From Candidatus Woesearchaeota archaeon (GTDB lineage Archaea; Nanobdellota; Nanobdellia; UBA10117; ARS21), in contig CAZYQG010000001.1 of NCBI GenBank assembly GCA_964649785.1, forward strand, positions 1 to 27,015: a stretch of 27,015 nt of DNA. Direction: 5' to 3'. The notes below the pieces were generated by a model. The model ran no database searches. It saw only the letters and a program-made list of their open reading frames with translations, and was not told where the DNA came from. Below, one piece after another: positions 2 to 25,384 of the stretch (within the stretch, counting starts at the first letter, position 1; the number at the start of each line of letters is the position of its first letter). Made by a program: the position numbers and the translations under genes.

Positions 2-277
2 ACTTCCAGATTCAAAAGTGACCTTATCTTCAAGACTTAAATTTTCAATATTTTCTCTTGCAACCTTTATTGCATAAGGATTGATATCAATACCGTTCCA
101 ACTATTTGCGAACTCACTTAGATATATTGCAAGTCTTCCGTCTCCACAACCAATATCAAGTATATTTTTTCCATCCAAAGAAACATGTTTTTCTATAATG
201 GATTTATATTTTTCAGTGAGTGCAGGAGTCAGATTTCCTTTGCTTGTGTACTTAACGTAAAAATCAGGATTATTCAT
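2..277 (-). CDS. Class I SAM-dependent methyltransferase, N-terminal part (runs off the left edge; not in ORF track)
   Basis: Hand translation from ATG at 277: MNNPDFYVKYTSKGNLTPALTEKYKSIIEKHVSLDGKNILDIGCGDGRLAIYLSEFANSWNGIDINPYAIKVARENIENLSLEDKVTFESGS. Contains motif I LDIGCGDG and motif II GIDIN. Start overlaps the rps27ae stop by 8 nt. Confidence 0.88.
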   Translation of the reverse strand, partial: MNNPDFYVKYTSKGNLTPALTEKYKSIIEKHVSLDGKNILDIGCGDGRLAIYLSEFANSWNGIDINPYAIKVARENIENLSLEDKVTFESGS

Positions 278-476
278 TTTTTTCAGAAGGTTTTTCTTCT
301 TGTTCTTGAGCGTTAGATTCTGTGTGTCCAGTTACACCACAATGTTTTCTGTCTTTGTGTATTGCCATGAACAAACCATTGTCTTTTGGTGATCGAGGAT
401 TCTTTCGGATTAGTTGTCCGTCTTTAACTTCGTAAAGCTTCCATCTTTGATATGCTGGTTTCTTTTCGTCTGCCAT
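270..476 (-). CDS. rps27ae: 30S ribosomal protein S27ae (eS31), zinc-ligand-degenerate form
   Basis: YEVKDGQLIRKN..SPK....FMAIHKDR.HCG..GHTE matches the S27ae pattern. Located directly after rps24e, as in the conserved archaeal operon. Confidence 0.9.
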   Translation of the reverse strand: MADEKKPAYQRWKLYEVKDGQLIRKNPRSPKDNGLFMAIHKDRKHCGVTGHTESNAQEQEEKPSEKNE

Positions 477-928
477 TATTCAGTTGCTTCCTCTTCTTTT
501 GTTTCTTCAGTTTCTGTAGCTTCTGCTTCAGCTACATCTTCTGTAGAAGTTTCTTCAGCTGGAGTCTCTTCAGCCGGTGTTTCAGCAGCAGCTTTTTCTT
601 CAGCTTTCTTAGCCTTGGCTTCTTCAGCTGCTTTCTTTTCTGCTTCAAATGCTTTTTCTCTCCGAGTAGCGAAGTGTTTATTTTCAATCTTTGAAATTAC
701 TTCTGCGTTGTCGTAGATATAGAATTTTGCTAAGCTTTTGTTTGATCCGAATCCAGTTTTCATTTTCTTCAGAACAATTTGCTCAGCTGGAGCTTTGAAT
801 TTAACTGACATGAATTTGTATAGTTCTGCACGAGAAGGAGTTTGTGTATTCTTGTGATCAATTTCTAGATTAATCTCTTTACGTGAGAACAACTTATTTT
901 CTGTTTCTTGTAATACTTTTGTTTTCAT
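476..928 (-). CDS. rps24e: 30S ribosomal protein S24e with acidic/Ala-rich C-terminal tail
   Basis: N-terminal ENKLFSRKEI..TPSR..KTGFG..YIYD is the eS24 signature. Operon position between spt4 and rps27ae. Confidence 0.93.
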   Translation of the reverse strand: MKTKVLQETENKLFSRKEINLEIDHKNTQTPSRAELYKFMSVKFKAPAEQIVLKKMKTGFGSNKSLAKFYIYDNAEVISKIENKHFATRREKAFEAEKKAAEEAKAKKAEEKAAAETPAEETPAEETSTEDVAEAEATETEETKEEEATE

Positions 929-1074
929 TATCTTAATCCGTATTCTCCCGGTTTGGAGATTTTAGCCTTTTTAGCTATTTCTGATTCTTCAGGATGAAAT
1001 ACAACCAATCTACCTTTCCAAGTTTCTGATTCTTTCAATCCCTTTGCGATTATTGGTAATTTTTTCTTTGCCAT
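928..1074 (-). CDS. spt4: Transcription elongation factor Spt4 (RpoE''), 48 aa, lacking the zinc ribbon (not in ORF track)
   Basis: Hand translation: MAKKKLPIIAKGLKESETWKGRLVVFHPEESEIAKKAKISKPGEYGLR*. The S..WKG....P..SEIAK....PG.Y pattern is the Spt4 C-terminal half. Located immediately after rpoE1, with a TAATG overlap into rps24e. Confidence 0.88.
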   Translation of the reverse strand: MAKKKLPIIAKGLKESETWKGRLVVFHPEESEIAKKAKISKPGEYGLR

Positions 1075-1077
1075 TTT

Positions 1078-1632
1078 TTAATTAGCTTTAGACTCAACTT
1101 TTCTGATATCATCAAGCCATTCTGATTTTCCAAGATATGGTTGACGCATAGTCATACCAATTTTTGGTTCTTGTGTGTTCTTGATGCTTACAGCAATGAT
1201 TCTTGCTCGGACTTTGTCCTTGACTTTCAGTACTTTCTTTGAGTCTTTCCCAAGAAGAGTACCTTCTTTGCTGAATGATACGAAGTCATCCATCGTTTGT
1301 GAAATGTGAATCATTCCTTCGAATGGTCCAAAGTCAACAAATGCTCCGAATTTTGCGATGTCTTTAATCTCACCTTCAATAAGATCGTTTGTTTCAGGTA
1401 AATAGTGAACAACGTTGAATGTTACGTTGTGAAATGCTGCTCCATCACCATGGATTATGATTCCATCTTCAATATTTTTTATTGATTGAATTGCTATTAC
1501 TCGTCCAAGTTGGTCAATTACTTTGTTTTCGTAATTTCGTCTAAGTTCTTCAGTTACAACTTTCTTTAAGTCTTCACTAAATCGACTTGGATCAACTCTG
1601 ACAACGCCTTCGACTGCGGATTTGTAATACAT
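1078..1632 (-). CDS. rpoE1: DNA-directed RNA polymerase subunit E' (Rpo7)
   Basis: GDGAAFHNVTF, S1 domain FGAFVDFGPFEGMIHISQ, and C-terminal KIGMTMRQPYLGK. Confidence 0.97.
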   Translation of the reverse strand: MYYKSAVEGVVRVDPSRFSEDLKKVVTEELRRNYENKVIDQLGRVIAIQSIKNIEDGIIIHGDGAAFHNVTFNVVHYLPETNDLIEGEIKDIAKFGAFVDFGPFEGMIHISQTMDDFVSFSKEGTLLGKDSKKVLKVKDKVRARIIAVSIKNTQEPKIGMTMRQPYLGKSEWLDDIRKVESKAN

Positions 1633-1656
1633 CGTAGTTTTGATGTGATTGGTAGC

Positions 1657-1670
1657 TTTTTAAACGTTTC
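1657..1670 (-). promoter_or_regulatory. BRE/TATA-like promoter of rpoE1 (probably leaderless transcript)
   Basis: Minus strand GAAACG-TTTAAAAA at -32 to -25 from the ATG at 1632. Contains the TAA stop of the PIN gene. Confidence 0.6.
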
Positions 1671-2037
1671 TAATCAGTTTTTTGCTAATAGTGAATATTT
1701 GTACAGATTCAGCCTTTAGACGCTTTTTGAGTATCTTGTCGTTAGTAAGCACTGAAAAGTTCTTTGCCACTGCAAATTCTAATATTTTGTCATCTGGATG
1801 ACCTCTTCCAAGATAAACAGTATCTACTTTTGAGAATTTAATTATTTGAATTGCTAATTTTGCTGCATTTTTATCAGCACCCTTTTGTTTTTTGTCGGTT
1901 TGAATAAATTCTAATTCTTTCAAGACTTCATTTGGAATTATAATTTTTGTAAAACCCATTTTTTTGAGTTCTGTGATTACATCTACTTTTTCCTTTGCTG
2001 CATAAATTAATGAATTTGTATCAATTACAATTTGCAT
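1660..2037 (-). CDS. PIN-domain ribonuclease (Fcf1/Utp24-like); start reassigned from 2163 to 2037
   Basis: MQIVIDTNS, IPNEVLKEL, DD and TND acidic PIN residues. Usual position upstream of rpoE1. The longer start overlaps the divergent MTase, and a TATA box sits 21-29 nt upstream of 2037. Confidence 0.85.
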   Translation of the reverse strand: MQIVIDTNSLIYAAKEKVDVITELKKMGFTKIIIPNEVLKELEFIQTDKKQKGADKNAAKLAIQIIKFSKVDTVYLGRGHPDDKILEFAVAKNFSVLTNDKILKKRLKAESVQIFTISKKLIRNV

Positions 2038-5317: not shown

Positions 5318-5899
5318 ATGTTCAAAGAAGAATTATTTTCGTTAATAGATTCATTGGAAGAGCTATATCAAACTGAACAGGTTAGCGATAAACAATATTC
5401 TTTACCAAAACTTTGCAACCTTATTCAAAAAAACCACGATGCAAATTCCAAACTTTGGATTAATGAGGAAGTTGCGAGGTCTGATGATATTGAAAACTCA
5501 AAAATTGTTAATGCAAAACGAAAGATTGATAGTTTAAATCAAATAAGAAATGATTGCGTTGAGTTAATCAATAATGAGTTAGTATCGCTTTTGTTAAAAG
5601 ATAAGATTAATCTTGACGATTTTGAAAAGTTCAATTCAGAAAGTTTTGGGAGTATAATTGATAGATTCTCAATAATGTATTTGAAACATTTTTACATGTT
5701 TCAACTTATAAATAACTCAAACTTAGAAGAATCTTTAAAAGCTTCTTGCAAAACTAAACTCTCGTTGATTGAAAATCAAAAGGCAGATCTTAAATATTTT
5801 CTCCAGGAATTGATTGAAGATATGTATTCTAAACGTCGCGCGTTTAAAATATACAAACAATTTAAAACATACAACAATCCAAAATTAAGAACATTTTAA
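5318..5899 (+). CDS. DUF4254 family protein (all-alpha, function unknown)
   Basis: NSKLWINEEVAR, KRKIDSLNQIRND, ESFGSIIDRFSIMYLKHFYM and YKQFKTYN match the DUF4254 motif series as I recall it. Confidence 0.78.
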   Translation: MFKEELFSLIDSLEELYQTEQVSDKQYSLPKLCNLIQKNHDANSKLWINEEVARSDDIENSKIVNAKRKIDSLNQIRNDCVELINNELVSLLLKDKINLDDFEKFNSESFGSIIDRFSIMYLKHFYMFQLINNSNLEESLKASCKTKLSLIENQKADLKYFLQELIEDMYSKRRAFKIYKQFKTYNNPKLRTF

Positions 5900-7507
5900 T
5901 TTATATAATGGAGATATTTTAATTGAGTCCTCAATTGTTCTATTATCTAGGTTTTTTACATTTTTTAATAATTCCAAAGGATTGTAATACTCTAGAAATT
6001 CTTCCAGTTTAAATTCTTTTGAAAGTTTGATATAATTTTTGTAAATATTTTCAAGATTCCCCTTTTTAGGAAGATTGGTTTCGCATCCAATTTTATCTAT
6101 CAAAGTTAGAACATTATCTAATCTATTTGATTCTTTCTTACTAATTACTACAGGCAACTGATAGGGTGAATAGCCACAGAATCCGATTGGAGATTCTCCA
6201 GCCATAGACCTTTTACTTTCATTATCCCAGCTTTCTGCGAAATATATAGTGAAATTGATTATTTTCTTATGCGTAACTAATGAAGCTATTGCAGAATCGC
6301 AAGCAAATACTAAGTTTATATTATTCACTTCAATCTTTTTACTTAACTCAGATATAGATTTGTCTTCCAGTATTTTACATAATGAATATCTCAATTCAAT
6401 TTGTGTTAACAACTTTTCAACTAATTTATAGTTTTTTGAACCTTTCTTTCCACATGAGATAAATATATTATTTACTTTTTTACTGTCTAAGTTTATGACC
6501 AAATTTTTCACAAAATTCAAACTCATTTCCTTTACCTTTGTAGATGCAAACGGTGCAATCAATATGTTAAGATTATGTTTATCTAACTTTAAATTATTTT
6601 TTCCAAATAAATTGATGTTGCAAGGCATAAATGGTTCAAGACAATCATTCATATGTGCTTCAATGTTGCCCGAGCTTAGTAATGGATCTTCCCGCTTAAG
6701 ATGAACAATTCTATTCTTATTATTTGGATTTATATTTACTAATAAATTTCTCCCAGGCAGGAAGTAAGTTAGCTTTTTATTTAAAGTTCCAATTATATCG
6801 ACTGAGCTTATGAAATGAGCATCAATTATGTCTGGCATAATTATTAGAGAATTATCCTTAATTGTTTGTTTCATTATATTAATATCCAGATCTTTAATAT
6901 TTATGAAATCTTGACTGATATGGTTCTTGAAACGTGAAAAACTGGAAACGATATTCAAGTTAAATTGCTCTTTAAGTTTATTTGAGTAATAACGACTTAT
7001 GATAGTATCACCAATATAATTGAATAAATTTATTGAATAAGCATTCCTAACATTCTTTAAATTTTTTAAAACTTCCTTTCTAAATTCTATCAATTTTACA
7101 TTTTCAATTTTTGTATTAAGAATTGATTCTAACACTTCCCTTTGTTCTTTCCTAAGTATTTCTGAACACAAACAAAGTCTGATTTCATATCCACTAACTT
7201 TTTTATTGATGATTTTTGATAAAATCTCAAAAGGATAACCTATTTGTAGTCTGAAGTTACCAGACCTTTTTTTTGTGATCATTAGAAATATATTTTTTTC
7301 TAATTCAATGATTTTATATTTTTCAGATTTTAAAACAACTTTTTTAATAATTCTATCAATTTTCACATTATTTTTTTTGTAGAACTTTTCCAAATAACTA
7401 AGTGAATCAGTAAATATATCGCCAACATTCGTTTCAGTAATAATATTCTTTTTACAATTTTTTAAATGGAAATCAGATATTTGTGTTAAATGCGTTGATA
7501 ATGCCAT
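5885..7507 (-). CDS. GT-B glycosyltransferase, GT9/heptosyltransferase-like, with ~150-aa extra N-terminal region
   Basis: YIGDTII (cf. GT9 iGD.vl), ILIAPFASTKVKE (cf. PGAS...K.W) and SISELSKKI....LVFACDSAIASL (cf. l.el..li..adl.i..Dsg..Hl). Highly divergent; the canonical His is not seen. Confidence 0.55.
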   Translation of the reverse strand: MALSTHLTQISDFHLKNCKKNIITETNVGDIFTDSLSYLEKFYKKNNVKIDRIIKKVVLKSEKYKIIELEKNIFLMITKKRSGNFRLQIGYPFEILSKIINKKVSGYEIRLCLCSEILRKEQREVLESILNTKIENVKLIEFRKEVLKNLKNVRNAYSINLFNYIGDTIISRYYSNKLKEQFNLNIVSSFSRFKNHISQDFINIKDLDINIMKQTIKDNSLIIMPDIIDAHFISSVDIIGTLNKKLTYFLPGRNLLVNINPNNKNRIVHLKREDPLLSSGNIEAHMNDCLEPFMPCNINLFGKNNLKLDKHNLNILIAPFASTKVKEMSLNFVKNLVINLDSKKVNNIFISCGKKGSKNYKLVEKLLTQIELRYSLCKILEDKSISELSKKIEVNNINLVFACDSAIASLVTHKKIINFTIYFAESWDNESKRSMAGESPIGFCGYSPYQLPVVISKKESNRLDNVLTLIDKIGCETNLPKKGNLENIYKNYIKLSKEFKLEEFLEYYNPLELLKNVKNLDNRTIEDSIKISPLYKLKCS

Positions 7508-10547: not shown

Positions 10548-10574
10548 CTAAAGTATTTTCTTAATTATTTCGTC
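10548..10574. repeat. Degenerate third copy of the repeat, forming the ftsY 3' end
   Basis: TTAATTATTTCGTC (10561-10574) is identical to 5264-5277. Over the last 9 codons, 21/27 nt match the left copy (DEIIKKIL* vs DEIIKQIL*). Confidence 0.75.
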
Positions 10575-11459
10575 GGCGCTGAATTCTTTCAAATCTTTGT
10601 ATTCTTGACCAATTCCTAAGAAAAGTATTGGTTTTCCAGTTTCGTGTGCTACTGAAATTATTGCTCCACCTCTTTCGTCAGCGTCAGCTTTTGTCAAAAT
10701 TACTCCATCAATGCCAATTTTTTCTCCAAAGAGTTTTGCTTGGTCAACTGCGTCATTTCCAGTTAAAGAATCAACAACTAGAATTGTAAAATCTGGTTTA
10801 GATACTCTTTTTACCTTTTCAAGTTCTCGCATCAAGTCTTCGTTTGCGTGACTTCTTCCTGCAGTATCTATTAAAACATAATCTAGTTTCTTTGCCTTTG
10901 CATGTTCAATTGCGTCGAACGCGACTGCTGCAGCATCAGAACCATAACTATGTTTTATTAGATTGATTTTAAGTTTGTCAGCGTGTGCTTGAATTTGTTC
11001 AATTGCTGCTGCTCGGAAAGTATCACCTGCGGCCATTACTACTTTCTTCTTTTTCTTTTGAAGATGCGATGCAAGTTTTGCAAGAGTTGTTGTCTTACCA
11101 ACACCATTAACTCCAACAAACATTATTTTGATTGGTTTGTCGCCTTTGTAAATATCAATTGCCTCTGCTGAGAGAATTTCTTTTAATTTTTTCTCAAGAG
11201 TTTTCTTTAGTTCTTTTGGCTTGGATTCTTTTATTGTTTCCTTTAATTCTTCAGTTACGGAATAAGCAACATTATTTGTCAACAATTCTTCTTCAAGCTC
11301 TTCTATAATTTTTTTGAGTTTAGATTTTTCTAAATTCTTAACAACATTTAATTTTGATACAAAAGAAGGTTTCTTTTCTTTCTTTGCTACAGGTTTTTTT
11401 GTTTCCTTCTCTACATTTTTTCTTACTTTTGAAAAAACAGATTTTAGACGCCCTAACAT
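10548..11459 (-). CDS. ftsY: Signal recognition particle receptor FtsY
   Basis: GVNGVGKTTT, DTFRAAAIEQ, DTAGR and TKADAD..GG. GAGGT Shine-Dalgarno upstream. Confidence 0.97.
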   Translation of the reverse strand: MLGRLKSVFSKVRKNVEKETKKPVAKKEKKPSFVSKLNVVKNLEKSKLKKIIEELEEELLTNNVAYSVTEELKETIKESKPKELKKTLEKKLKEILSAEAIDIYKGDKPIKIMFVGVNGVGKTTTLAKLASHLQKKKKKVVMAAGDTFRAAAIEQIQAHADKLKINLIKHSYGSDAAAVAFDAIEHAKAKKLDYVLIDTAGRSHANEDLMRELEKVKRVSKPDFTILVVDSLTGNDAVDQAKLFGEKIGIDGVILTKADADERGGAIISVAHETGKPILFLGIGQEYKDLKEFSADEIIKKIL

Positions 11460-12560: not shown

Positions 12561-13043
12561 TTATTCCTTCTTTTTAGATTTAGTTGAGGATGATTTGGTT
12601 TTAGTTTTTGTTGCGGAAGCTTTCTTTGTTACAGGTTTTTTTGCCGGTGTTTTCTTGGCTGTAGTTTTTGGTTTAGTTTCTTTCTTTGCTACTACTTTCT
12701 TCACTGGTTTTTCTTCCTTTTTCTCTTCGACTTTTTCTGGAAGTTCTGTTGGTTTTGTTTCTTCCTTCTTTGCTTTTCGAGGAAGTTCTGAAAGTTCGAC
12801 TAATACATAATCGTCTTCCTTCTTTACGTCAACTCTAACTCGTGAAGGAGGGTTTTTTGCGCCTCTCTTCCAAATTGCTTCATTAAGCCATCTGCCAACT
12901 TTGACATCTTCAGCTTTTGCGTGTTGAACTACAAAACTTCTGACTGTGTTTACTGCCTTTTCAGCCCTTCGCCATCGTGCAGTCTTAAGAAACTCCTTTC
13001 TCAAAGGAATTGTGTATGTCCGTGTTTCTCCAGCCTTCATCAT
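12561..13043 (-). CDS. rpl31e: 50S ribosomal protein L31e with ~70-aa Lys/Thr-rich C-terminal tail
   Basis: YTIPLR, RRAEKAV, LNEAIWKRG..NPPSRVRV. Confidence 0.95.
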   Translation of the reverse strand: MMKAGETRTYTIPLRKEFLKTARWRRAEKAVNTVRSFVVQHAKAEDVKVGRWLNEAIWKRGAKNPPSRVRVDVKKEDDYVLVELSELPRKAKKEETKPTELPEKVEEKKEEKPVKKVVAKKETKPKTTAKKTPAKKPVTKKASATKTKTKSSSTKSKKKE

Positions 13044-14589: not shown

Positions 14590-14884
14590 AGAAGACGGGG
14601 CTAACCTTGTGAATCACTTAAAGTTAAGTTTCAACTCTCGCGAGTGAAGCTATAAAGAGTGATAAGGGCAATAAGGGCAACTGTTAGTAGCTTGAGACGA
14701 CGATTGGGGAAAATAGGCCGCGATATGCGAACCCTTTTCGATTCGTTTGATCCCTCACTAGCATCTCTTAATGTCAGAAGAGGCTATTGACCGAGCTGTT
14801 TGAGCTGAAGAGTTCATTAAGAATTCATTCAGGAGGGCAACACTTTGGCCGTGGACCTTTTCCTCATGGGCCTATACGTCTTCT
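14590..14884 (+). ncRNA. Candidate ~295-nt structured non-coding RNA, class unassigned
   Basis: No ORF >=60 aa. Ends pair (AGAAGACG 14590-14597 / CGTCTTCT 14877-14884). Long helix 14706-14722 with 14850-14865, plus several hairpins. G-U pairs mostly favour the + strand. TATA upstream and T6 runs downstream. Confidence 0.6.
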
Positions 14885-14887
14885 AAA

Positions 14888-14893
14888 TTTTTT
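14888..14893 (+). terminator. Oligo-T tract (archaeal intrinsic terminator candidate) after the ncRNA
   Basis: T6 starts 4 nt after the 3' closing strand; a second T6 is at 14905-14910. Confidence 0.4.
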
Positions 14894-14937
14894 AGTTTCG
14901 AGCGTTTTTTAAGTTTTAATACTAAGAACATAGTCCC

Positions 14938-20000: not shown

Positions 20001-20017
20001 GCTTGTTAGTCTTTATC

Positions 20018-21181
20018 ATGTCCATAGGCCGAAAAGGGAAGTCAGAAGTAAGTCCTACGGGTGCCGTAGTTTTACTAGTTTTACTGGCCGGATTTTTACT
20101 TTTTATCCTATCTCTACCTCAAGATTACCGAGATGCTACGCTGGATCGGATTGAGTCAGCTACACCAGACGTTTTATTTCAATTAACTCCAGGAGATGTA
20201 AAGACTACGACGGGTGCAAGTAGTACAACTCGTTATGATTTTGTAAATTTTAAACTAGACTCAGAAATGAGTTCAGTTGATTCGATTTTGTCAAGTAGTT
20301 TAAATTTAGAGTCTTCAGTACTCAACGACGATAGCGGAACTTATTCATTTATTCCTGAATGGGATGCTAATACTCTTGGAATTAGTCTAAATGCTTTTGT
20401 TCAAAGTTACGCAGGAAATGGGAAAATTGTTATTTTACTCAATGGTGCACAAATTTATTCCGGTACGCCTGTTGTCGGAAGTTCACTTAAAGTGAATTTA
20501 CCGTCTTCAGGAATGTTTCAAGGAACTAATAATTTGGAAGTTGTATTAGATAAACAGGGAGCTAATATATTTAGTTCTACTAAACTGGGATTGACTGGTG
20601 TTTTGTTGAGAACGGATTCAGTAGGTAAGGATTTATCAAGCATTTTTAATTTTGAAGTTGAAAGAGGAGAATTAGTTTCCGGTACTTATACGTCGATTAT
20701 TCAAAGGTCTGGAGCATCAGTACCACTAAATATTGAGTTAAATGGTGCATCGATTTATTCAGGAATTCCAGTTACAACTATTTTGACAGTTCCAATTTCA
20801 AAAGAATTACTTGTTCAAGGAACCAATAATTTAGCGTTTAGTATTGGAGAAGGTGTAGCATATGAAATTCTCTATTCAGATTTGATTGTTAAATCTCGGT
20901 CAGTTGAGGAATCCGTCAATGAATATTTCTTCAGAATTGAGAGAACTCCAGCTAAACGAATAATTAATGGTAGAGTTGATTGTCTTCTTGAGCTTATTAA
21001 AGGCAGTGGAACTGCTGATGAAGTTATTGTTGATTTGAATGGACGAGTAAGCACACATTCTGTCCGGGCTGGAGAAGTTTCATTTGATGTTTGTAATAGT
21101 CTAGTTTATGGAGGGAATACAATTTCTTTTGCTTCCGACGAGGAATTAAATCTAAGTTCGGCAAGTCTGATTTTGAGCTGA
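20018..21181 (+). CDS. Exported/membrane-anchored beta-rich protein of unknown function; start reassigned from TTG 20003 to ATG 20018
   Basis: Basic leader MSIGRKG, one hydrophobic helix, then a Ser/Thr/Gly/Asn-rich extracellular region with three similar '(I/V)xLNG ... GxNxL/I' units. Confidence 0.75.
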   Translation: MSIGRKGKSEVSPTGAVVLLVLLAGFLLFILSLPQDYRDATLDRIESATPDVLFQLTPGDVKTTTGASSTTRYDFVNFKLDSEMSSVDSILSSSLNLESSVLNDDSGTYSFIPEWDANTLGISLNAFVQSYAGNGKIVILLNGAQIYSGTPVVGSSLKVNLPSSGMFQGTNNLEVVLDKQGANIFSSTKLGLTGVLLRTDSVGKDLSSIFNFEVERGELVSGTYTSIIQRSGASVPLNIELNGASIYSGIPVTTILTVPISKELLVQGTNNLAFSIGEGVAYEILYSDLIVKSRSVEESVNEYFFRIERTPAKRIINGRVDCLLELIKGSGTADEVIVDLNGRVSTHSVRAGEVSFDVCNSLVYGGNTISFASDEELNLSSASLILS

Positions 21182-21182
21182 G

Positions 21183-23165
21183 ATGGTTTGGGACAAGATA
21201 AAGTCTGTAGCAAAGGCTGCACCTTCGGCAGTCACCGCCGGATTATCAGGTAAACTTCTAACCTTTTTACTAGTATTTGTTTTTGCTAATATTGGTTATC
21301 TTACTGGATTTCCTCTTATTATCTATGCATGGTTTGCAGGTTCAATTGGCTGGATTGCGAACGTTATACTTGGCAGAATTGGGGCACCTCTAATTCCAGA
21401 TTTTATCTTTACCTATTCAAAAATTATTACAAAATTCGGATGGGGTTTTATTTTCAACGGTTGGTATGTTTGGTGGTTTATCCGTAGACGTCGAGCAATT
21501 AACGCTGGAGCAGGGAAAGTAGAGTTTTGGAATGGTGGATTTGGTATGATTATAAAATTTGCATGGCTTTGGGTAGTATTTAGCTTTGTATTTACAGTAT
21601 TTTATACTGGATACAATTTTAACTCTGATTTTGACTTCCCCGTAACGGGTTGTGGAATACAGCGAACTGCACAATCTCAGCTTGGACTTTCTCCAGTTTC
21701 TTGTGAGATTGAAGGGTTCAATTTAGCAGCTCAACGACAATCTGAAAAAGCAGAGTTTGCTGCAGTTACAGGAACAGGAGTGATGGGCAGGTTATTTGCA
21801 CCGTTTATGGAAGAGACGGGATTTGGAAAAGTGTTCAAATCTAAGGACGTTCAGGATGAAACTATCTTAAATGAAGCAGCAGGATCAACTTTGACTGATT
21901 TGCGCGCGCCAAAGCTAAGCTATACTGCAAACAATCGGCTTGCTGAAGATATCAAGATTTTGGCAAATATTGAAGCCAAGAATTTATTTTTGAATGCTCC
22001 TTCTGATTCTAAGATTCTAGTTAAAATTGAACCAAGCATTTCAGTTACACAATGTGGTTGTACAGGTTTTAGTTGTTTAGCTGAAGATGTGAATTATCCT
22101 TTTGAAGCATTTAATCCTCACGGAGACCAACCAATTGTTTTTGAAAATGAGGAAGAAGTTCGTTGTTTGTTAACGGCTCAAGATATACTAAGGGGTGGTG
22201 GCTTTGGTCAAGAAGAGGACGCTGGAGAAACACCTTGTTGGTGTAATTATCGATGGACTTGTAATATTGATGGAATTTCTACCGAGGATAGAATTGCTCA
22301 GAATACTTTCAGGCTTGGTAGTGGTTTCCATCAACAAATTAAATGTATTCGTCCAGGGCTGTCTTTGAGAGAAGATAAATTTGTTGATGGTGATGAAGTC
22401 AGATATGATGGATTAGGTAAGCCATTTTATGTAGATGTTGACTTTTCTTATGATGGAATTGCTGCAGCCAATAAGCAATTGTTTGTCATTGATAAGAATG
22501 TTGCACGGCAAGAACAAGATCCAATTAATGCCTTAAATTTGGGAGATTATGTAATTTCCAACTCTTTCAATGACGGAAGAGTAAGACTTGGAATTGGTAC
22601 CGATACTTTATATGAATTCGTTACTCCCGCTTATTATGAGGACTTTTCTCCAGATATCCTTGATTTGGGCGTAAGCTTTAGTGCGAATAGATATCCGGGT
22701 GGATACAGAGCTGAAATTAATAAAGTCACTTTATGGGTACAAGTTTTGGATGATTCAGTTGGATTTGTTTGCGGAACGAGAGGTTTACCTGAGAAGAATA
22801 ATGAGACCCTAAAATGGGAGATTTCAGAAGAAGATAAATGTGATCCTGAAGGAAACAGTCAAAGTGGCAATTTCAGATATGAAGGATTGGATGAGACTGA
22901 GAGTTACCATAAATTTGTTATGAATAGCGAAGAGGCGCAAGATCTTGGTGCAAAGACTGTTTTGAATCTTGGAGAAGTTGCTAATTATGAGATTAAGATG
23001 TTTATACCTGAAGAAGTGCTTGGAGGATCAAGCTATCAAGGTATTTTGATTGAATCTGAAGTCGAATACACTTATACTACACGTGATGATTTGCTAGTGA
23101 GAGTAACACATGATGTATTTGTTGTAGATGAGCCAGAAGACGCAATAGTGATTGGAATTGGTTAA
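21183..23165 (+). CDS. Large membrane-anchored surface protein (N-terminal TM bundle plus Cys-rich acidic ectodomain)
   Basis: About 4 TM segments in residues ~25-145, then an acidic ectodomain with 12 Cys. No recognisable catalytic motif. Confidence 0.75.
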   Translation: MVWDKIKSVAKAAPSAVTAGLSGKLLTFLLVFVFANIGYLTGFPLIIYAWFAGSIGWIANVILGRIGAPLIPDFIFTYSKIITKFGWGFIFNGWYVWWFIRRRRAINAGAGKVEFWNGGFGMIIKFAWLWVVFSFVFTVFYTGYNFNSDFDFPVTGCGIQRTAQSQLGLSPVSCEIEGFNLAAQRQSEKAEFAAVTGTGVMGRLFAPFMEETGFGKVFKSKDVQDETILNEAAGSTLTDLRAPKLSYTANNRLAEDIKILANIEAKNLFLNAPSDSKILVKIEPSISVTQCGCTGFSCLAEDVNYPFEAFNPHGDQPIVFENEEEVRCLLTAQDILRGGGFGQEEDAGETPCWCNYRWTCNIDGISTEDRIAQNTFRLGSGFHQQIKCIRPGLSLREDKFVDGDEVRYDGLGKPFYVDVDFSYDGIAAANKQLFVIDKNVARQEQDPINALNLGDYVISNSFNDGRVRLGIGTDTLYEFVTPAYYEDFSPDILDLGVSFSANRYPGGYRAEINKVTLWVQVLDDSVGFVCGTRGLPEKNNETLKWEISEEDKCDPEGNSQSGNFRYEGLDETESYHKFVMNSEEAQDLGAKTVLNLGEVANYEIKMFIPEEVLGGSSYQGILIESEVEYTYTTRDDLLVRVTHDVFVVDEPEDAIVIGIG

Positions 23166-23222
23166 GATGGAGAATAAAATGTTGAACAGAAGATATAAAA
23201 ATGAGGAGGGACTTTCTAAAAT

Positions 23223-24386
23223 ATGAAGCTAAGTCATGTACTAATATTCATATTGATTGTATTTCTAAGCGGATGTACAGCAGATGAATCTGTTGAGACC
23301 ACTCAATTGAGTAGCACGGGCGGACTAGTTACTGGCGTTTATGCAGACTCTCTACCTTCTAGTTTATTTGAAGGAGATCAAATATTCTTACAATTGAGCG
23401 TTGAAAATCAAGGAGATCATGATGTTGAGGCAGGTAATTATTATTTAAATATAAAGGGAATCAACCCCACAGCATACCAAGGATTAGAGGTTGCTGATTT
23501 GACCAAGATTTCAAGTACTGAATTACTTTCTTTGGGTGAATTTGGAAACGACACTATTGTTAGAGGTCAAGAAGTATTTACTATTGGAAATTCATTCCTT
23601 TATTGTAATAATATTGACAATGATTTACCACTAAACCTTCATGCTAAGACTTGTTATGATTACGGAACAACTTCTGAAATCTCAGGATGTTTCATACATT
23701 CAACAAGCTCCACGGGAGATGAAGTTTGTGTAGTTTCAGGATATAAACCAGTAACAAACAGTATTGCACCAGTAATAATTACTGAGGTTGCAGAGAGTGT
23801 CGCTGGATCATCAGACGTTAGATTCAGAGTTAAAGTTGAAAATCTTGGAGGCGGTAAAGTATTTGATAAGTACAGTAATTCTGCAGGAGTTACTCAAACA
23901 GTTCAATCATGTGAATCTCTACCTAGAGGTACTGGATGGAATGTAATTTATATTGAAGATATTACTTTAGACGGTGCTACAATAATCAATACTGATACTG
24001 ATATTGATAGTGGTTTCAGATTCGAAGGTGGTGTTGAGAGCGTAGATGGCAAACACCGATTCAGACTTGATAACACGGGAACTGGACGATTCTCATTTGT
24101 AACAGGAGTTACCGGTCTTGATTTCGTAGGAAAAGTCGAGTTCAAATTAAGTTATGGTTACTCTGAAACTGATATTTTCAGTACAACAATTAAGGCCTTG
24201 TCAGACTTTTCACCAACCTGCGAGCAAAGTGATTCTACTACTGAAGAATCAACAACCGAAGATAGTTCAAGTGGAAGCACTATAAGTGACGAAGATGGAG
24301 ATGGAATTGCTGACTCCGAGGATCAATGTCCTAACACTGCAGAAGGAGCAGCAGTTGATCCAGATGGTTGTGTACCACAGGAATAA
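23223..24386 (+). CDS. Putative lipoprotein with Ser/Thr-rich linker and C-terminal thrombospondin type 3-like Ca-binding repeat
   Basis: Lipobox-like FLSG-C at residue 18; DEDGDGIADSEDQCPNT...VDPDGC tail; GAGG-type SD upstream. Confidence 0.78.
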   Translation: MKLSHVLIFILIVFLSGCTADESVETTQLSSTGGLVTGVYADSLPSSLFEGDQIFLQLSVENQGDHDVEAGNYYLNIKGINPTAYQGLEVADLTKISSTELLSLGEFGNDTIVRGQEVFTIGNSFLYCNNIDNDLPLNLHAKTCYDYGTTSEISGCFIHSTSSTGDEVCVVSGYKPVTNSIAPVIITEVAESVAGSSDVRFRVKVENLGGGKVFDKYSNSAGVTQTVQSCESLPRGTGWNVIYIEDITLDGATIINTDTDIDSGFRFEGGVESVDGKHRFRLDNTGTGRFSFVTGVTGLDFVGKVEFKLSYGYSETDIFSTTIKALSDFSPTCEQSDSTTEESTTEDSSSGSTISDEDGDGIADSEDQCPNTAEGAAVDPDGCVPQE

Positions 24387-24388
24387 TC

Positions 24389-25384
24389 ATGAATATTCAA
24401 AAAGCAATTATTGTAATATTATTAGTAATTATTAGTGGATGTATTGGTGGAACTCAGAAAGTATCAGATGATTTTGGAATGGGCCTTGTTGGAACAGATA
24501 AAGGAATTACTTTTGAAATGTCAGACCTTCCGCCAGCAATTGGAGCAAATCAGGCATTTAATTTAGAAATCTCAGCAACTAATAGAGGTTCATATTCTGT
24601 AAATCCTGGAGACGTTCTAGTTTCGTTAAGTAGTTTCAAATCATTTGATTTTAGTTTGAAGGATGATTTCTATCAAGAAAAAGTTGGTGAAAATGGATTA
24701 ACTAATAGTAATATTCTACTCAAAGCCTTCGATTCAGATGTGGCAGGAGATTCAGCACTATTTCTATTTGAAGGAATGTCATACAAAACTAAGTCATCAA
24801 CAGACATACAAGTTCCACTTACAATTGATACGTGCTATTATTATTCTTCCCTTGCCTCAGTTAATGTTTGCGTAGCCAAAGATACTTCAAGCGATATTTG
24901 TAGTTCAAGCGAAGCCAAACAAGTAGTAAATCAAGGTTCTCCAGTCAAAATTACTGGAGTTGAACAAATAGGGAGTATTCTTACTGGCGCGGCAGATACG
25001 GGACAGGGAAAAATTACTTCCAACATTCGAATTGATGTAAGTACAAGCGGTGCGGGTAAGTTTGAATCATACTGGGAGCGAGATCCAAAAAATCCACTTT
25101 CTTGTACTAGTTCTCAAGATGCTGTTACATTAAATACCGTCAGACTCAGATCAATCAAAGTTGGAAGCCAGGAAATAATTGAGGGAGAGGAAATAGTAAA
25201 TCTCTGCGGTTCAAATTTGATAAATATTGATTCAGAGGGAAAAGGTTCAATAAATTGTAATTCAGTTCTTTTGTATGGTCAATATTCTACAGCCATTGGT
25301 GACTTTGAAGAAAGAATGGCAATTACTTTAGATTATTTAAATTCAGATAGTATTACTAAAAACTTGAAAGTGCTATCAAATTAG
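24389..25384 (+). CDS. Putative lipoprotein, paralog of 23223-24386; start reassigned from TTG 24368 to ATG 24389
   Basis: Lipobox-like IISG-C at residue 18; shares the TCY.Y....C, C....K.V.N...PV.IT.V and G.GK motifs with the preceding gene. Confidence 0.78.
   Translation: MNIQKAIIVILLVIISGCIGGTQKVSDDFGMGLVGTDKGITFEMSDLPPAIGANQAFNLEISATNRGSYSVNPGDVLVSLSSFKSFDFSLKDDFYQEKVGENGLTNSNILLKAFDSDVAGDSALFLFEGMSYKTKSSTDIQVPLTIDTCYYYSSLASVNVCVAKDTSSDICSSSEAKQVVNQGSPVKITGVEQIGSILTGAADTGQGKITSNIRIDVSTSGAGKFESYWERDPKNPLSCTSSQDAVTLNTVRLRSIKVGSQEIIEGEEIVNLCGSNLINIDSEGKGSINCNSVLLYGQYSTAIGDFEERMAITLDYLNSDSITKNLKVLSN

What the first reader, a model, noticed from the sequence alone, without database searches (positions are those of the whole stretch)
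928..1074. Minimal Spt4 with the entire zinc ribbon deleted
Seen: a 48-aa ORF with no cysteine at the canonical spt4 position, retaining only the C-terminal half (SETWKG, HPEESEIAKK, PGEY). Established: archaeal and eukaryotic Spt4 bind Zn through two N-terminal CxxC motifs and pair with the Spt5 NGN domain through the C-terminal strand. Inference: a Zn-free Spt4 reduced to the Spt5-binding core, intermediate between Spt4/5 and bacterial NusG alone. It is short enough to be missed by gene callers, so 'spt4 absent' calls in small archaea may be artefacts.
Basis: partly seen in the sequence, partly recalled or inferred. Interest (0 to 1): 0.7.

Follow-up and report, generated by a model that had tools for sequence, protein, structure and literature searches.

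The report
Zinc-free 48-residue Spt4 in marine DPANN
A clade of tiny marine archaea keeps a shortened, cysteine-free version of the transcription elongation factor Spt4, which suggests that the zinc ribbon regarded as essential to this protein can be lost in nature.

Summary
The 48-codon ORF at 928-1074 (-) is real. It has no cysteine and lies in the canonical archaeal slot rpoE'(Rpo7) > spt4 > rps24e > rps27ae. Residues 15-48 match the C-terminal core of Spt4. An 11-residue deletion and two substitutions removed all four Zn ligands. The gene is fixed at 48 codons in a monophyletic marine Woesearchaeota/Nanoarchaeota clade. It is under purifying selection (dN/dS 0.02-0.35) and appears in many independent assemblies. 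The sister lineage has a 59-61 aa CxxC...CxxH Spt4 in the same slot. AlphaFold models retrieve only Spt4 chains from the PDB. The best reading is a zinc-independent Spt4 ortholog that still partners the Spt5 NGN domain; binding itself was not tested.

The N-terminal 14 residues are retained and conserved. The form is a derived reduction, not an intermediate towards NusG. Gene callers, NCBI and IMG already call and name it Spt4/RpoE''; only the Pfam and NCBIfam curated cut-offs miss it.

Zn-ligand loss recurs: 10 of 75 scorable related species lack a full ligand set, and the neighbouring rps27ae has also lost its ribbon. This is a new variant of a known protein, of moderate interest.

The parts
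928..1074 (-). Complete CDS of the 48-aa cysteine-free Spt4 ortholog (stop codon 928-930)
   Evidence: ORF list and sequence; Spt4 HMM and PDB matches; identical or related 48-aa genes in the same slot in L001-L012 and L091-L094; dN/dS 0.02-0.35
1033..1074 (-). Codons 1-14 (MAKKKLPIIAKGLK): remnant of the zinc-ribbon region. The inferred 11-codon deletion junction lies between codons 8 and 9 (nt 1050/1051). Leu6 replaces the 1st Cys and Ala10 replaces the 4th ligand.
   Evidence: MAFFT alignment with sister C3H forms and canonical Spt4. L6, P7, I9, K11, G12 and K14 are invariant in 15 clade members. AlphaFold predicts a short beta-hairpin, with block-mean pLDDT 60-73 over residues 1-20.
931..1032 (-). 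Codons 15-48: conserved Spt4 core (strand GRLVVF, Ser31 at nt 982-984, helix SEIAKK, strand GEYGLR). This is the part that faces the Spt5 NGN domain in solved complexes.
   Evidence: Aligns to Mj Spt4 residues 23-55. Ser31 corresponds to Mj Ser39, which H-bonds Spt5 Glu46 (PMC2896526). The predicted core superposes on Spt4 chains at 1.2-3.1 A for the Mj and best Pfu chains, with outliers at 3.4-4.6 A.
1078..1632 (-). rpoE' (Rpo7, RNA polymerase stalk subunit), the upstream operon neighbour
   Evidence: Pfam SHS2_Rpb7-N + S1; NCBIfam NF006333 at 220 bits
476..928 (-). rps24e, the downstream gene. Its start overlaps the spt4 stop (TAATG).
   Evidence: Pfam Ribosomal_S24e at 76 bits; sequence
270..476 (-). 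rps27ae, the last gene of the unit. It has also lost its zinc ribbon (NPRS...CGVTG, 1 Cys).
   Evidence: Pfam and NCBIfam S27ae. Nearly all other related loci where it was found have 4-5 Cys; only this clade, L065 and L070 have the 1-Cys form.

Best explanation
The ORF is the orthologous spt4 (rpoE'') gene of a marine DPANN clade (NCBI labels: Nanoarchaeota / Woesearchaeota / DHVE6). It has become zinc-independent.

Inferred history: in the clade's ancestor an 11-codon deletion removed the hairpin between the two zinc knuckles together with the 2nd and 3rd ligands, and the other two ligand positions became Leu and Ala.

Inferred structure: about 34 residues form the strand-helix-strand core. 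A short conserved N-terminal hairpin probably supplies a small hydrophobic core in place of the metal.

Inferred function: the protein still docks edge-to-edge on the Spt5 NGN beta-sheet, using Ser31 and the SEIAKK helix, and stabilises Spt5 on RNA polymerase as canonical Spt4 does.

Shown here: the gene is real, syntenic, conserved, under purifying selection and ligand-free, and its predicted fold is Spt4-like. Not shown: Spt5 binding, absence of metal, and why the loss was tolerated. The likely reason is a mesophilic lifestyle with relaxed need for metal-stabilised folding, by analogy with the C- forms of small ribosomal proteins.
For: Identity and position:
- Spt4 HMM and PDB matches are restricted to the C-terminal core.
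- The gene occupies the canonical rpoE'-spt4-rps24e-rps27ae slot with overlapping stop/start codons.

Conservation:
- The same 48-aa gene occurs in Tara, JGI, ENA, Logan and NCBI assemblies, including long-read polished contigs of about 445 kb.
- The exact window protein is on 169 contigs.
- 13 clusters (90% identity) of exactly 48 aa, plus 4 longer calls of the same family (mis-called starts or chimeras), were found.
- dN/dS is 0.02-0.35 while dS reaches saturation.
- The invariant residues include those invariant across Zn-bearing Spt4 (W19, G21, S31, G43, Y45) and also the N-terminal L6, P7, I9, K11, G12 and K14.

Phylogeny:
- On the Rpo7 tree the clade is monophyletic. Its sister carries a 59-aa CxxC..CxxH Spt4 in the same slot. 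The closest other Zn forms (P0044, P0181) are also C3H, and P0044 is syntenic.

Predicted fold:
- AlphaFold gives pLDDT 71.6 with a mixed alignment and 78.7 with a clade-only alignment, with the same strand-strand-strand-helix-strand pattern.
- Foldseek against the PDB returns Spt4 chains as the top 16 hits (mixed-alignment model) and as all 16 hits (clade-only model). TM-score on the query is mostly 0.52-0.63, and rmsd is 1.2-2.3 A over 32-36 residues for the first 13 hits of the clade-only model.

Literature:
- The role of Spt4 is to stabilise the Spt5 NGN domain, especially against heat (PMC2896526).
Against: - No direct evidence of Spt5 binding. The cognate Spt5 is not in the window or in any fetched locus.
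- Metatranscriptome contigs cover rpoE', rps24e and rps27ae of related strains, but not spt4 itself.
- The five AlphaFold models differ widely (47.9-78.7), and the N-terminal hairpin has only moderate confidence.
- Foldseek E-values are weak (0.03-0.3) because the query is so short.
- In yeast, mutating any Zn-binding Cys of Spt4 causes loss of function (PMC2896526). A zinc-free fold is therefore not a trivial expectation.
Confidence: 0.75

Rival explanations
1. Decaying relic. The ORF is a truncated remnant of spt4 with no protein function, kept only as a translated spacer that couples translation of rpoE' to rps24e.
For: All four Zn ligands are lost, and yeast genetics calls them essential. 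Stop/start overlaps show tight translational coupling. No transcript or peptide evidence exists for this ORF itself.
Against: dN/dS is 0.02-0.35 with saturated dS, and the length is fixed at 48 codons in lineages whose Spt4 sequences are only 63-69% identical to the window's. The residues that stay invariant are the same ones invariant in functional Spt4. A spacer would not conserve its amino-acid sequence.
Confidence: 0.04
2. Redundant or specialised extra copy. A canonical zinc-bearing Spt4 is encoded elsewhere in the genome, and this short form is a diverged duplicate with a different or auxiliary role.
For: The whole genome could not be scanned. Only the 27-kb window and loci of 20 kb or less were available.
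Against: It occupies the ancestral spt4 slot, and the sister lineages carry their Zn-bearing Spt4 in that same slot. That makes it the ortholog rather than a duplicate. No second Spt4-like ORF occurs in the window or in the 20-kb loci of the clade. Archaea normally carry a single spt4 (own knowledge).
Confidence: 0.07
3. Repurposed peptide. The shortened protein no longer binds Spt5 and has acquired another partner, for example the Rpo4/7 stalk or the small ribosomal subunit whose genes flank it.
For: It has a conserved, clade-specific N-terminal segment (LPxIxKGxK) with no counterpart in canonical Spt4. It is co-transcribed with stalk and ribosomal genes.
Against: The conserved surface is the canonical one, including Ser31 and the helix that contact Spt5 in 3LPE. 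The gene neighbourhood is the ancestral one shared by ordinary Spt4, so it says nothing new.
Confidence: 0.08
4. Assembly or gene-calling artefact. A deletion was introduced by an assembler, or the start codon was wrongly chosen.
For: Short ORFs in AT-rich (34% GC) DNA are common by chance.
Against: An in-frame stop lies one codon upstream. Contigs of four independent marine runs are colinear with 0 differences and 0 indels across 400-1700. The same gene appears in assemblies made with different assemblers and in long-read contigs.
Confidence: 0.01

Closest known systems
Archaeal Spt4 / RpoE'' (M. jannaschii 3LPE_B, 4ZN1_B; P. furiosus 1RYQ, 3P8B_A, 3QQC_E)
   Same: Same gene slot after rpoE'. 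Residues 15-47 are about 51-56% identical to Mj Spt4 residues 23-55 by the Foldseek alignments. The conserved W-x-G, Ser (Mj S39), SEIAKK helix and G-x-Y strand are all present. The predicted core superposes at 1.2-3.1 A on the Mj and best Pfu chains, with outliers at 3.4-4.6 A.
   Different: No Cys at all and 11-13 residues shorter. The CxxC...CxxC ribbon, described as an essential structural element (PMC2896526), is absent. It scores below the Pfam and NCBIfam curated cut-offs.
C3H-type Spt4 of the sister DPANN lineage (P0007, P0044, P0048, P0181; 59-61 aa, CxxC-x8/9-CxxH)
   Same: These are its nearest Zn-bearing relatives: Rpo7 is 68% identical for P0007, and P0044 and P0048 score 57% and 55% identity to the window protein over the full alignment. 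P0007 and P0044 are confirmed in the same slot. They share the MAKK start and a related C-terminus (GEYALR in P0007, GEYAIR in the others, against GEYGLR here).
   Different: They keep a complete, though weakened, ligand set and the hairpin between the knuckles. The window form lacks both.
Full-length cysteine-poor Spt4 of other Woesearchaeota (64 aa, 1 Cys: L013, L016, L019, L024, L031, L036, L053; 0 Cys: L071, P0016, P0020, P0022, P0025, P0027)
   Same: Independent loss of the Zn ligands in the same gene, with the same conserved C-terminal core.
   Different: They keep the full length, so the ribbon region is degenerate but not deleted. They belong to different clades on the Rpo7 tree. Several still pass the Pfam cut-off.
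C- (zinc-free) isoforms of small zinc-ribbon ribosomal proteins (Makarova, Ponomarev & Koonin 2001, PMC56895; PMC10450194)
   Same: Recurrent evolutionary disruption of a structural Zn ribbon in a tiny nucleic-acid-machinery protein, linked to zinc supply or growth temperature. rps27ae in this same operon shows the pattern.
   Different: Those cases are ribosomal proteins, often with a C+ paralog retained. Here the protein is a transcription factor subunit, and no paralog was seen.
Bacterial NusG acting without an Spt4 partner
   Same: It shows that an NGN domain can function without a zinc-ribbon partner (PMC7289017).
   Different: This lineage still keeps and conserves an Spt4-derived partner. 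The phylogeny shows secondary reduction, not a transitional state.

Membership tests
Spt4 / RpoE'' (Pfam PF06093 'Spt4/RpoE2 zinc finger'; NCBIfam NF041664) | Significant sequence similarity to the family profile | tested here: met
   NF041664 E=4.7e-11 and PF06093 E=7.3e-5, covering only profile positions 22-56/57 and 40-74/77. phmmer against 3LPE_B gives E=6e-6.
Spt4 / RpoE'' (Pfam PF06093; NCBIfam NF041664) | Whole-protein score at or above the curated cut-off | tested here: not met
   Pfam 23.2 against 25 bits; NCBIfam 42.4 against 50. Other clade members score 21.7 and 36.6-38.7. A few clade clusters do carry a precomputed PF06093 hit.
Spt4 / RpoE'' | Four Zn-coordinating Cys (CxxC...CxxC zinc ribbon) | tested here: not met
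   0 Cys in the window protein and in the 48-aa clade members whose sequences were read. The only His (H27) is not conserved.
Spt4 / RpoE'' | Orthologous gene position rpoE'(Rpo7) > spt4 > rps24e > rps27ae | tested here: met
   Window. An Spt4 ORF lies downstream of rpoE' on the same strand in 75 of 80 related species-level loci, with rps24e and rps27ae detected further downstream in most.
Spt4 / RpoE'' | Descent from Zn-bearing Spt4 (phylogenetic nesting) | tested here: met
   On the Rpo7 NJ tree the 48-aa clade is monophyletic, with a C3H-Spt4 lineage as sister and C4 lineages outside. This is a distance tree of one marker, without support values.
Spt4 / RpoE'' | Spt4 fold (beta-sheet plus helix, core superposable on solved Spt4) | tested here: met
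   Two AlphaFold models (pLDDT 71.6 and 78.7). The top 16 (and for the clade-only model all 16) Foldseek PDB hits are Spt4 chains, with TM-score on the query mostly 0.52-0.63 over 32-39 columns and E-values of only 0.03-0.3 for the best. This is a prediction, not a structure.
Spt4 / RpoE'' | Conserved interface Ser (Mj Ser39) that H-bonds Spt5 NGN Glu46 | tested here: met
   Ser31 aligns to Mj Ser39 and is invariant in all alignments. Its role is taken from PMC2896526.
Spt4 / RpoE'' | Stable heterodimer with the Spt5 NGN domain | not testable with these tools
   The cognate Spt5 is not in the window or in any fetched locus. No complex prediction tool was available.
C- (zinc-free) variants of zinc-ribbon proteins (evolutionary category, Makarova et al. 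2001) | Homolog of a Zn-ribbon protein in which the ligand Cys are replaced or deleted while the protein is retained under selection | tested here: met
   Ligands absent, homologs with ligands present, purifying selection.

The most novel reading that the evidence does not exclude
The zinc ribbon of Spt4 is dispensable in nature and has been lost repeatedly in DPANN archaea. The 48-aa form would define the minimal Spt5-NGN-stabilising module, about 35 core residues plus a metal-free mini-hairpin. Its loss together with the rps27ae ribbon in the same operon would reflect a lineage-wide shedding of structural zinc/cysteine sites from the core expression machinery of ultra-small mesophilic cells.
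Probability: 0.35. Interest if true: 0.6.

Novelty: new variant of a known kind. Interest (0 to 1): 0.45.

Why it matters
Reviews and structural papers describe Spt4 as a zinc-ribbon protein whose four Cys are nearly invariant and structurally essential. A 2026 survey even identifies Spt4 orthologs by the zinc finger (PMC2896526, PMC7289017, PMC13289920).

A naturally selected metal-free Spt4 of 48 residues, plus several independent full-length Cys-free lineages, shows that the ribbon is not required for retention of the gene. It also offers a ready-made minimal construct for asking what Spt4 contributes to Spt5.

There is a practical consequence for domain-based censuses. These orthologs fall under the Pfam and NCBIfam curated cut-offs, so 'Spt4 not detected' calls in DPANN genomes can be threshold artefacts.

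The effect is limited. The gene is already called and named in NCBI and IMG, and loss of structural zinc ribbons is a known evolutionary theme.

Tried and rejected
- Longer reading frame or upstream zinc-ribbon exon: rejected. An in-frame TAA lies one codon upstream, Rpo7 is full length (profile 1-182 of 188), and there is no intergenic space.
- Assembly deletion: rejected as far as contigs allow.
- Expression: marine metatranscriptome contigs cover neighbouring genes of related strains but not this ORF, so the result is inconclusive.
- Cognate Spt5: no NGN or KOW domain protein in the window. The seed may be imperfect, so this negative is weak.
- Second spt4 in the genome: not testable.
- Zinc-scarce surface ocean as a general cause: not supported. 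The other Cys-free lineages have names suggesting sediment and groundwater MAGs. Cys content of the clade (0.5-0.95%) is only modestly below the relatives' median of 1.14%.
- Conserved stop-codon readthrough fusing Rpo7 to Spt4 (same frame, TAA AAA ATG in the window): rejected. Related lineages have the two genes in different frames with a 1-nt overlap.
- Literature: no paper in the held library mentions a Cys-free or zinc-free Spt4. The library is incomplete, so prior description cannot be excluded.

Full report
OBSERVATION. The minus strand of 928-1074 carries a 48-codon ORF, MAKKKLPIIAKGLKESETWKGRLVVFHPEESEIAKKAKISKPGEYGLR. It has no cysteine. An in-frame TAA lies one codon upstream of the ATG, and that TAA is the stop of the preceding gene, so no longer frame is available. 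The preceding gene (1078-1632 -) is a full-length Rpo7/RpoE' (NCBIfam NF006333, 220 bits). The following genes are rps24e (476-928 -) and rps27ae (270-476 -), each start overlapping the previous stop as TAATG. This is the canonical archaeal rpoE'-spt4-rps24e-rps27ae unit. The ORF matches Spt4 models significantly, but only over their C-terminal halves. NF041664 gives E=4.7e-11 (profile 22-56 of 57). PF06093 gives E=7.3e-5 (profile 40-74 of 77). M. jannaschii Spt4 3LPE_B gives E=6e-6 (query 15-47 to chain 23-55). Both HMM scores are below the curated cut-offs: 23.2 against 25, and 42.4 against 50.

SOURCE AND REALITY OF THE GENE. Rpo7 is 99% identical to a 177.7-kb contig of the MAG 'Nanoarchaeota archaeon bin102p', and 88% identical to 'Ca. 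Woesearchaeota SI072_bin119'. The same or closely related 48-aa gene sits in the same slot in contigs from Tara Oceans, JGI, ENA, Logan and NCBI. These were made with different assemblers. A more divergent lineage (P0005, 67% identical) is represented by long-read polished contigs of about 445 kb. The exact window protein is recorded on 169 contigs. A profile search of 5.8 billion proteins found 13 clusters at 90% identity that are exactly 48 aa, plus 4 longer calls of the same family that look like mis-called starts or chimeras. Logan contigs of four marine DNA runs are colinear with window 400-1700, with no difference and no indel. Pairwise dN/dS within the clade is 0.02-0.35 while dS runs to saturation, and the length never changes. 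The gene is therefore real and under purifying selection. Metatranscriptome contigs cover parts of rpoE', rps24e and rps27ae of related strains but not this ORF, so expression of the ORF itself is not shown.

WHAT HAPPENED TO THE ZINC RIBBON. I fetched 80 species-representative loci of related DPANN archaea through Rpo7 and read the ORF that follows it. The counts are:
- 62 loci have a canonical 59-64 aa CxxC...CxxC Spt4.
- 3 loci have three Cys plus a possible Asp or His fourth ligand.
- 7 loci form a clade with a 64-aa, one-Cys form.
- 1 locus has a 64-aa form with no Cys.
- 2 loci (the window's species and its sister) have the 48-aa form.
- 5 loci could not be scored.
Thus 10 of 75 scorable species lack a complete ligand set. 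On an Rpo7 neighbour-joining tree the 48-aa clade is monophyletic, and its sister (L095, Rpo7 68% identical) carries a 59-aa CxxC...CxxH Spt4 in the same slot. The 64-aa Cys-poor forms lie elsewhere on the tree, so ligand loss happened at least three times. The nearest other Zn-bearing proteins (P0044, P0048, P0181) are also C3H, and P0044 is syntenic. The alignment to these gives a simple picture: MAKLMCPK[CKRLTSTSTCP]VHKDAKLVETWKGR against MAKKKLPI[-----------]IAKGLKESETWKGR. On this reading one 11-codon deletion removed the 2nd and 3rd ligands and the hairpin between them. The 1st Cys became Leu6, with the following Pro kept. The 4th ligand became Ala10. This is inferred from the alignment. 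The ribbon is therefore destroyed rather than wholly deleted. The remaining 14 N-terminal residues are as conserved as the core, with L6, P7, I9, K11, G12 and K14 invariant in 15 members.

STRUCTURE AND LIKELY MECHANISM. Two AlphaFold runs were made. One used an alignment that includes Zn-bearing Spt4 (pLDDT 71.6). The other used clade members only (best model 78.7, though the five models range from 47.9 to 78.7). Both predict a short N-terminal hairpin (about residues 6-16), strand 21-25, helix 32-36 and strand 43-47. TM-score normalised to the query is mostly 0.52-0.63. For the first 13 hits of the clade-only model the rmsd is 1.2-2.3 A over 32-36 residues. E-values are weak (0.03-0.3 for the best) because the query is so short. 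In the M. jannaschii Spt4/5 structure the two beta-sheets join edge to edge. Ser39 of Spt4 fixes Glu46 of the NGN domain, an Spt4 helix packs on NGN helices, and the main measured effect of Spt4 is heat stabilisation of the NGN domain (PMC2896526). All of these Spt4 elements are retained here: the GRLVVF strand, the invariant Ser31 and the SEIAKK helix. My best explanation (confidence 0.75) is a zinc-independent Spt4 ortholog that still partners Spt5 NGN, with the conserved mini-hairpin taking over the packing role of the metal site. Spt5 binding and absence of metal are inferences. The cognate Spt5 is not in the window or in any fetched locus.

WHY THE LOSS WAS TOLERATED. Small ribosomal proteins are known to exist in Zn-binding (C+) and Zn-free (C-) forms. 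The metal is thought to aid folding at high temperature (PMC10450194 citing Makarova et al. 2001). The same operon supplies an example. rps27ae has lost three of its four ribbon Cys in this clade (NPRS...CGVTG), whereas nearly all relatives keep four, and two unrelated lineages (L065, L070) lost them independently. A mesophilic marine lifestyle with relaxed need for metal-stabilised mini-domains is the most economical explanation. Zinc scarcity in the surface ocean is not a general explanation, because other Cys-free lineages carry names suggesting sediment and groundwater MAGs. The clade's Cys content (0.5-0.95%) is only modestly below the relatives' median of 1.14%.

The core idea, a Zn-free Spt4 reduced to the Spt5-facing core, is supported at the level of sequence, evolution and predicted fold. 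Three points need correction.
- The ribbon region is shortened and mutated, not entirely removed, and what remains is conserved.
- The form is a derived reduction nested within Zn-bearing lineages, not an intermediate towards the bacterial NusG-only state.
- Gene callers do not miss it. It is called in every contig examined, and it is named 'DNA-directed RNA polymerase subunit E''' by NCBI (for example RZD31575.1, MEK9635326.1) and 'RPABC4/Spt4' by IMG. What fails are the curated Pfam and NCBIfam thresholds (the precomputed Pfam column is empty for most clusters). Domain-based censuses that define Spt4 by its zinc finger (PMC13289920) would therefore probably report it absent.

RIVALS.
- A non-functional relic kept as a translational coupler is contradicted by the strong amino-acid conservation (0.04).
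- A specialised extra copy beside a canonical Spt4 elsewhere cannot be excluded without the whole genome. It is unlikely because this is the ancestral slot (0.07).
- A repurposed peptide with a new partner is possible but unsupported (0.08).
- An assembly or calling artefact is excluded as far as contigs allow (0.01).

NOVELTY AND SCORE. I found no mention of a Cys-free Spt4 in the searchable literature. Reviews call Spt4 a zinc-ribbon protein whose Cys are nearly invariant and essential. The sequences themselves are already in public databases under the right name. I rate this a new variant of a known kind, with interest 0.45. It is a tidy natural experiment on the dispensability of the Spt4 zinc ribbon and a caution for HMM-threshold surveys, not a new system.

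Noticed in passing
window 270-476 (-): rps27ae has lost three of its four zinc-ribbon Cys (NPRS...CGVTG). Nearly all related loci where it was found keep four or five Cys. L065 and L070 lost them independently, and their Spt4 is still four-Cys.
   Followed up: partly
L091, L093, L094 around 10550-10620: In the more divergent 48-aa-Spt4 lineage (P0005) no rps27ae follows rps24e. There is only a gap of about 65 nt before the deoxyhypusine synthase gene, and tblastn finds no S27ae anywhere in the 20-kb loci.
   Followed up: partly
window 14590-14900 (+): An intergenic stretch of about 310 nt that looks richer in G+C than its surroundings. It has no tRNA and no Rfam match. It folds with paired ends (-93.7 kcal/mol, z=-1.9 on the + strand). 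The syntenic stretch of L091/L093/L094 has many invariant columns in long blocks (mean column identity 78% over four sequences), although synonymous sites between these lineages are saturated. It is a candidate conserved structured RNA, possibly a divergent SRP RNA or RNase P RNA.
   Followed up: partly
window 476-928 (-); L093 10149-10553: rps24e carries a C-terminal tail of about 50 residues rich in Ala, Glu, Pro and Lys. In the P0005 lineage the tail is a tandem APAEEEKPAEE repeat whose copy number differs between samples. rpL31e (12561-13043 -) has a similar long Lys/Glu/Thr-rich tail.
   Followed up: no
window 1072-1080: rpoE' and spt4 are in the same reading frame, separated only by TAA AAA. 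Stop-codon readthrough would fuse Rpo7 to Spt4. This is not conserved: related lineages have the genes in different frames with a 1-nt overlap.
   Followed up: yes
window 20003-25384 (+) and 5885-7507 (-): Four consecutive ORFs (392, 660, 387 and 338 aa) and a 540-aa ORF have no Pfam match at E<=0.001. A DUF4254 protein lies at 5318-5899.
   Followed up: no
L015, L047, L081 (Spt4 ORFs after rpoE'): Three Woesearchaeota Spt4 have three Cys, with Asp or His at or near the fourth ligand position (CPNGH, CIRD, CPND). They may be intermediate or alternative zinc sites.
   Followed up: no
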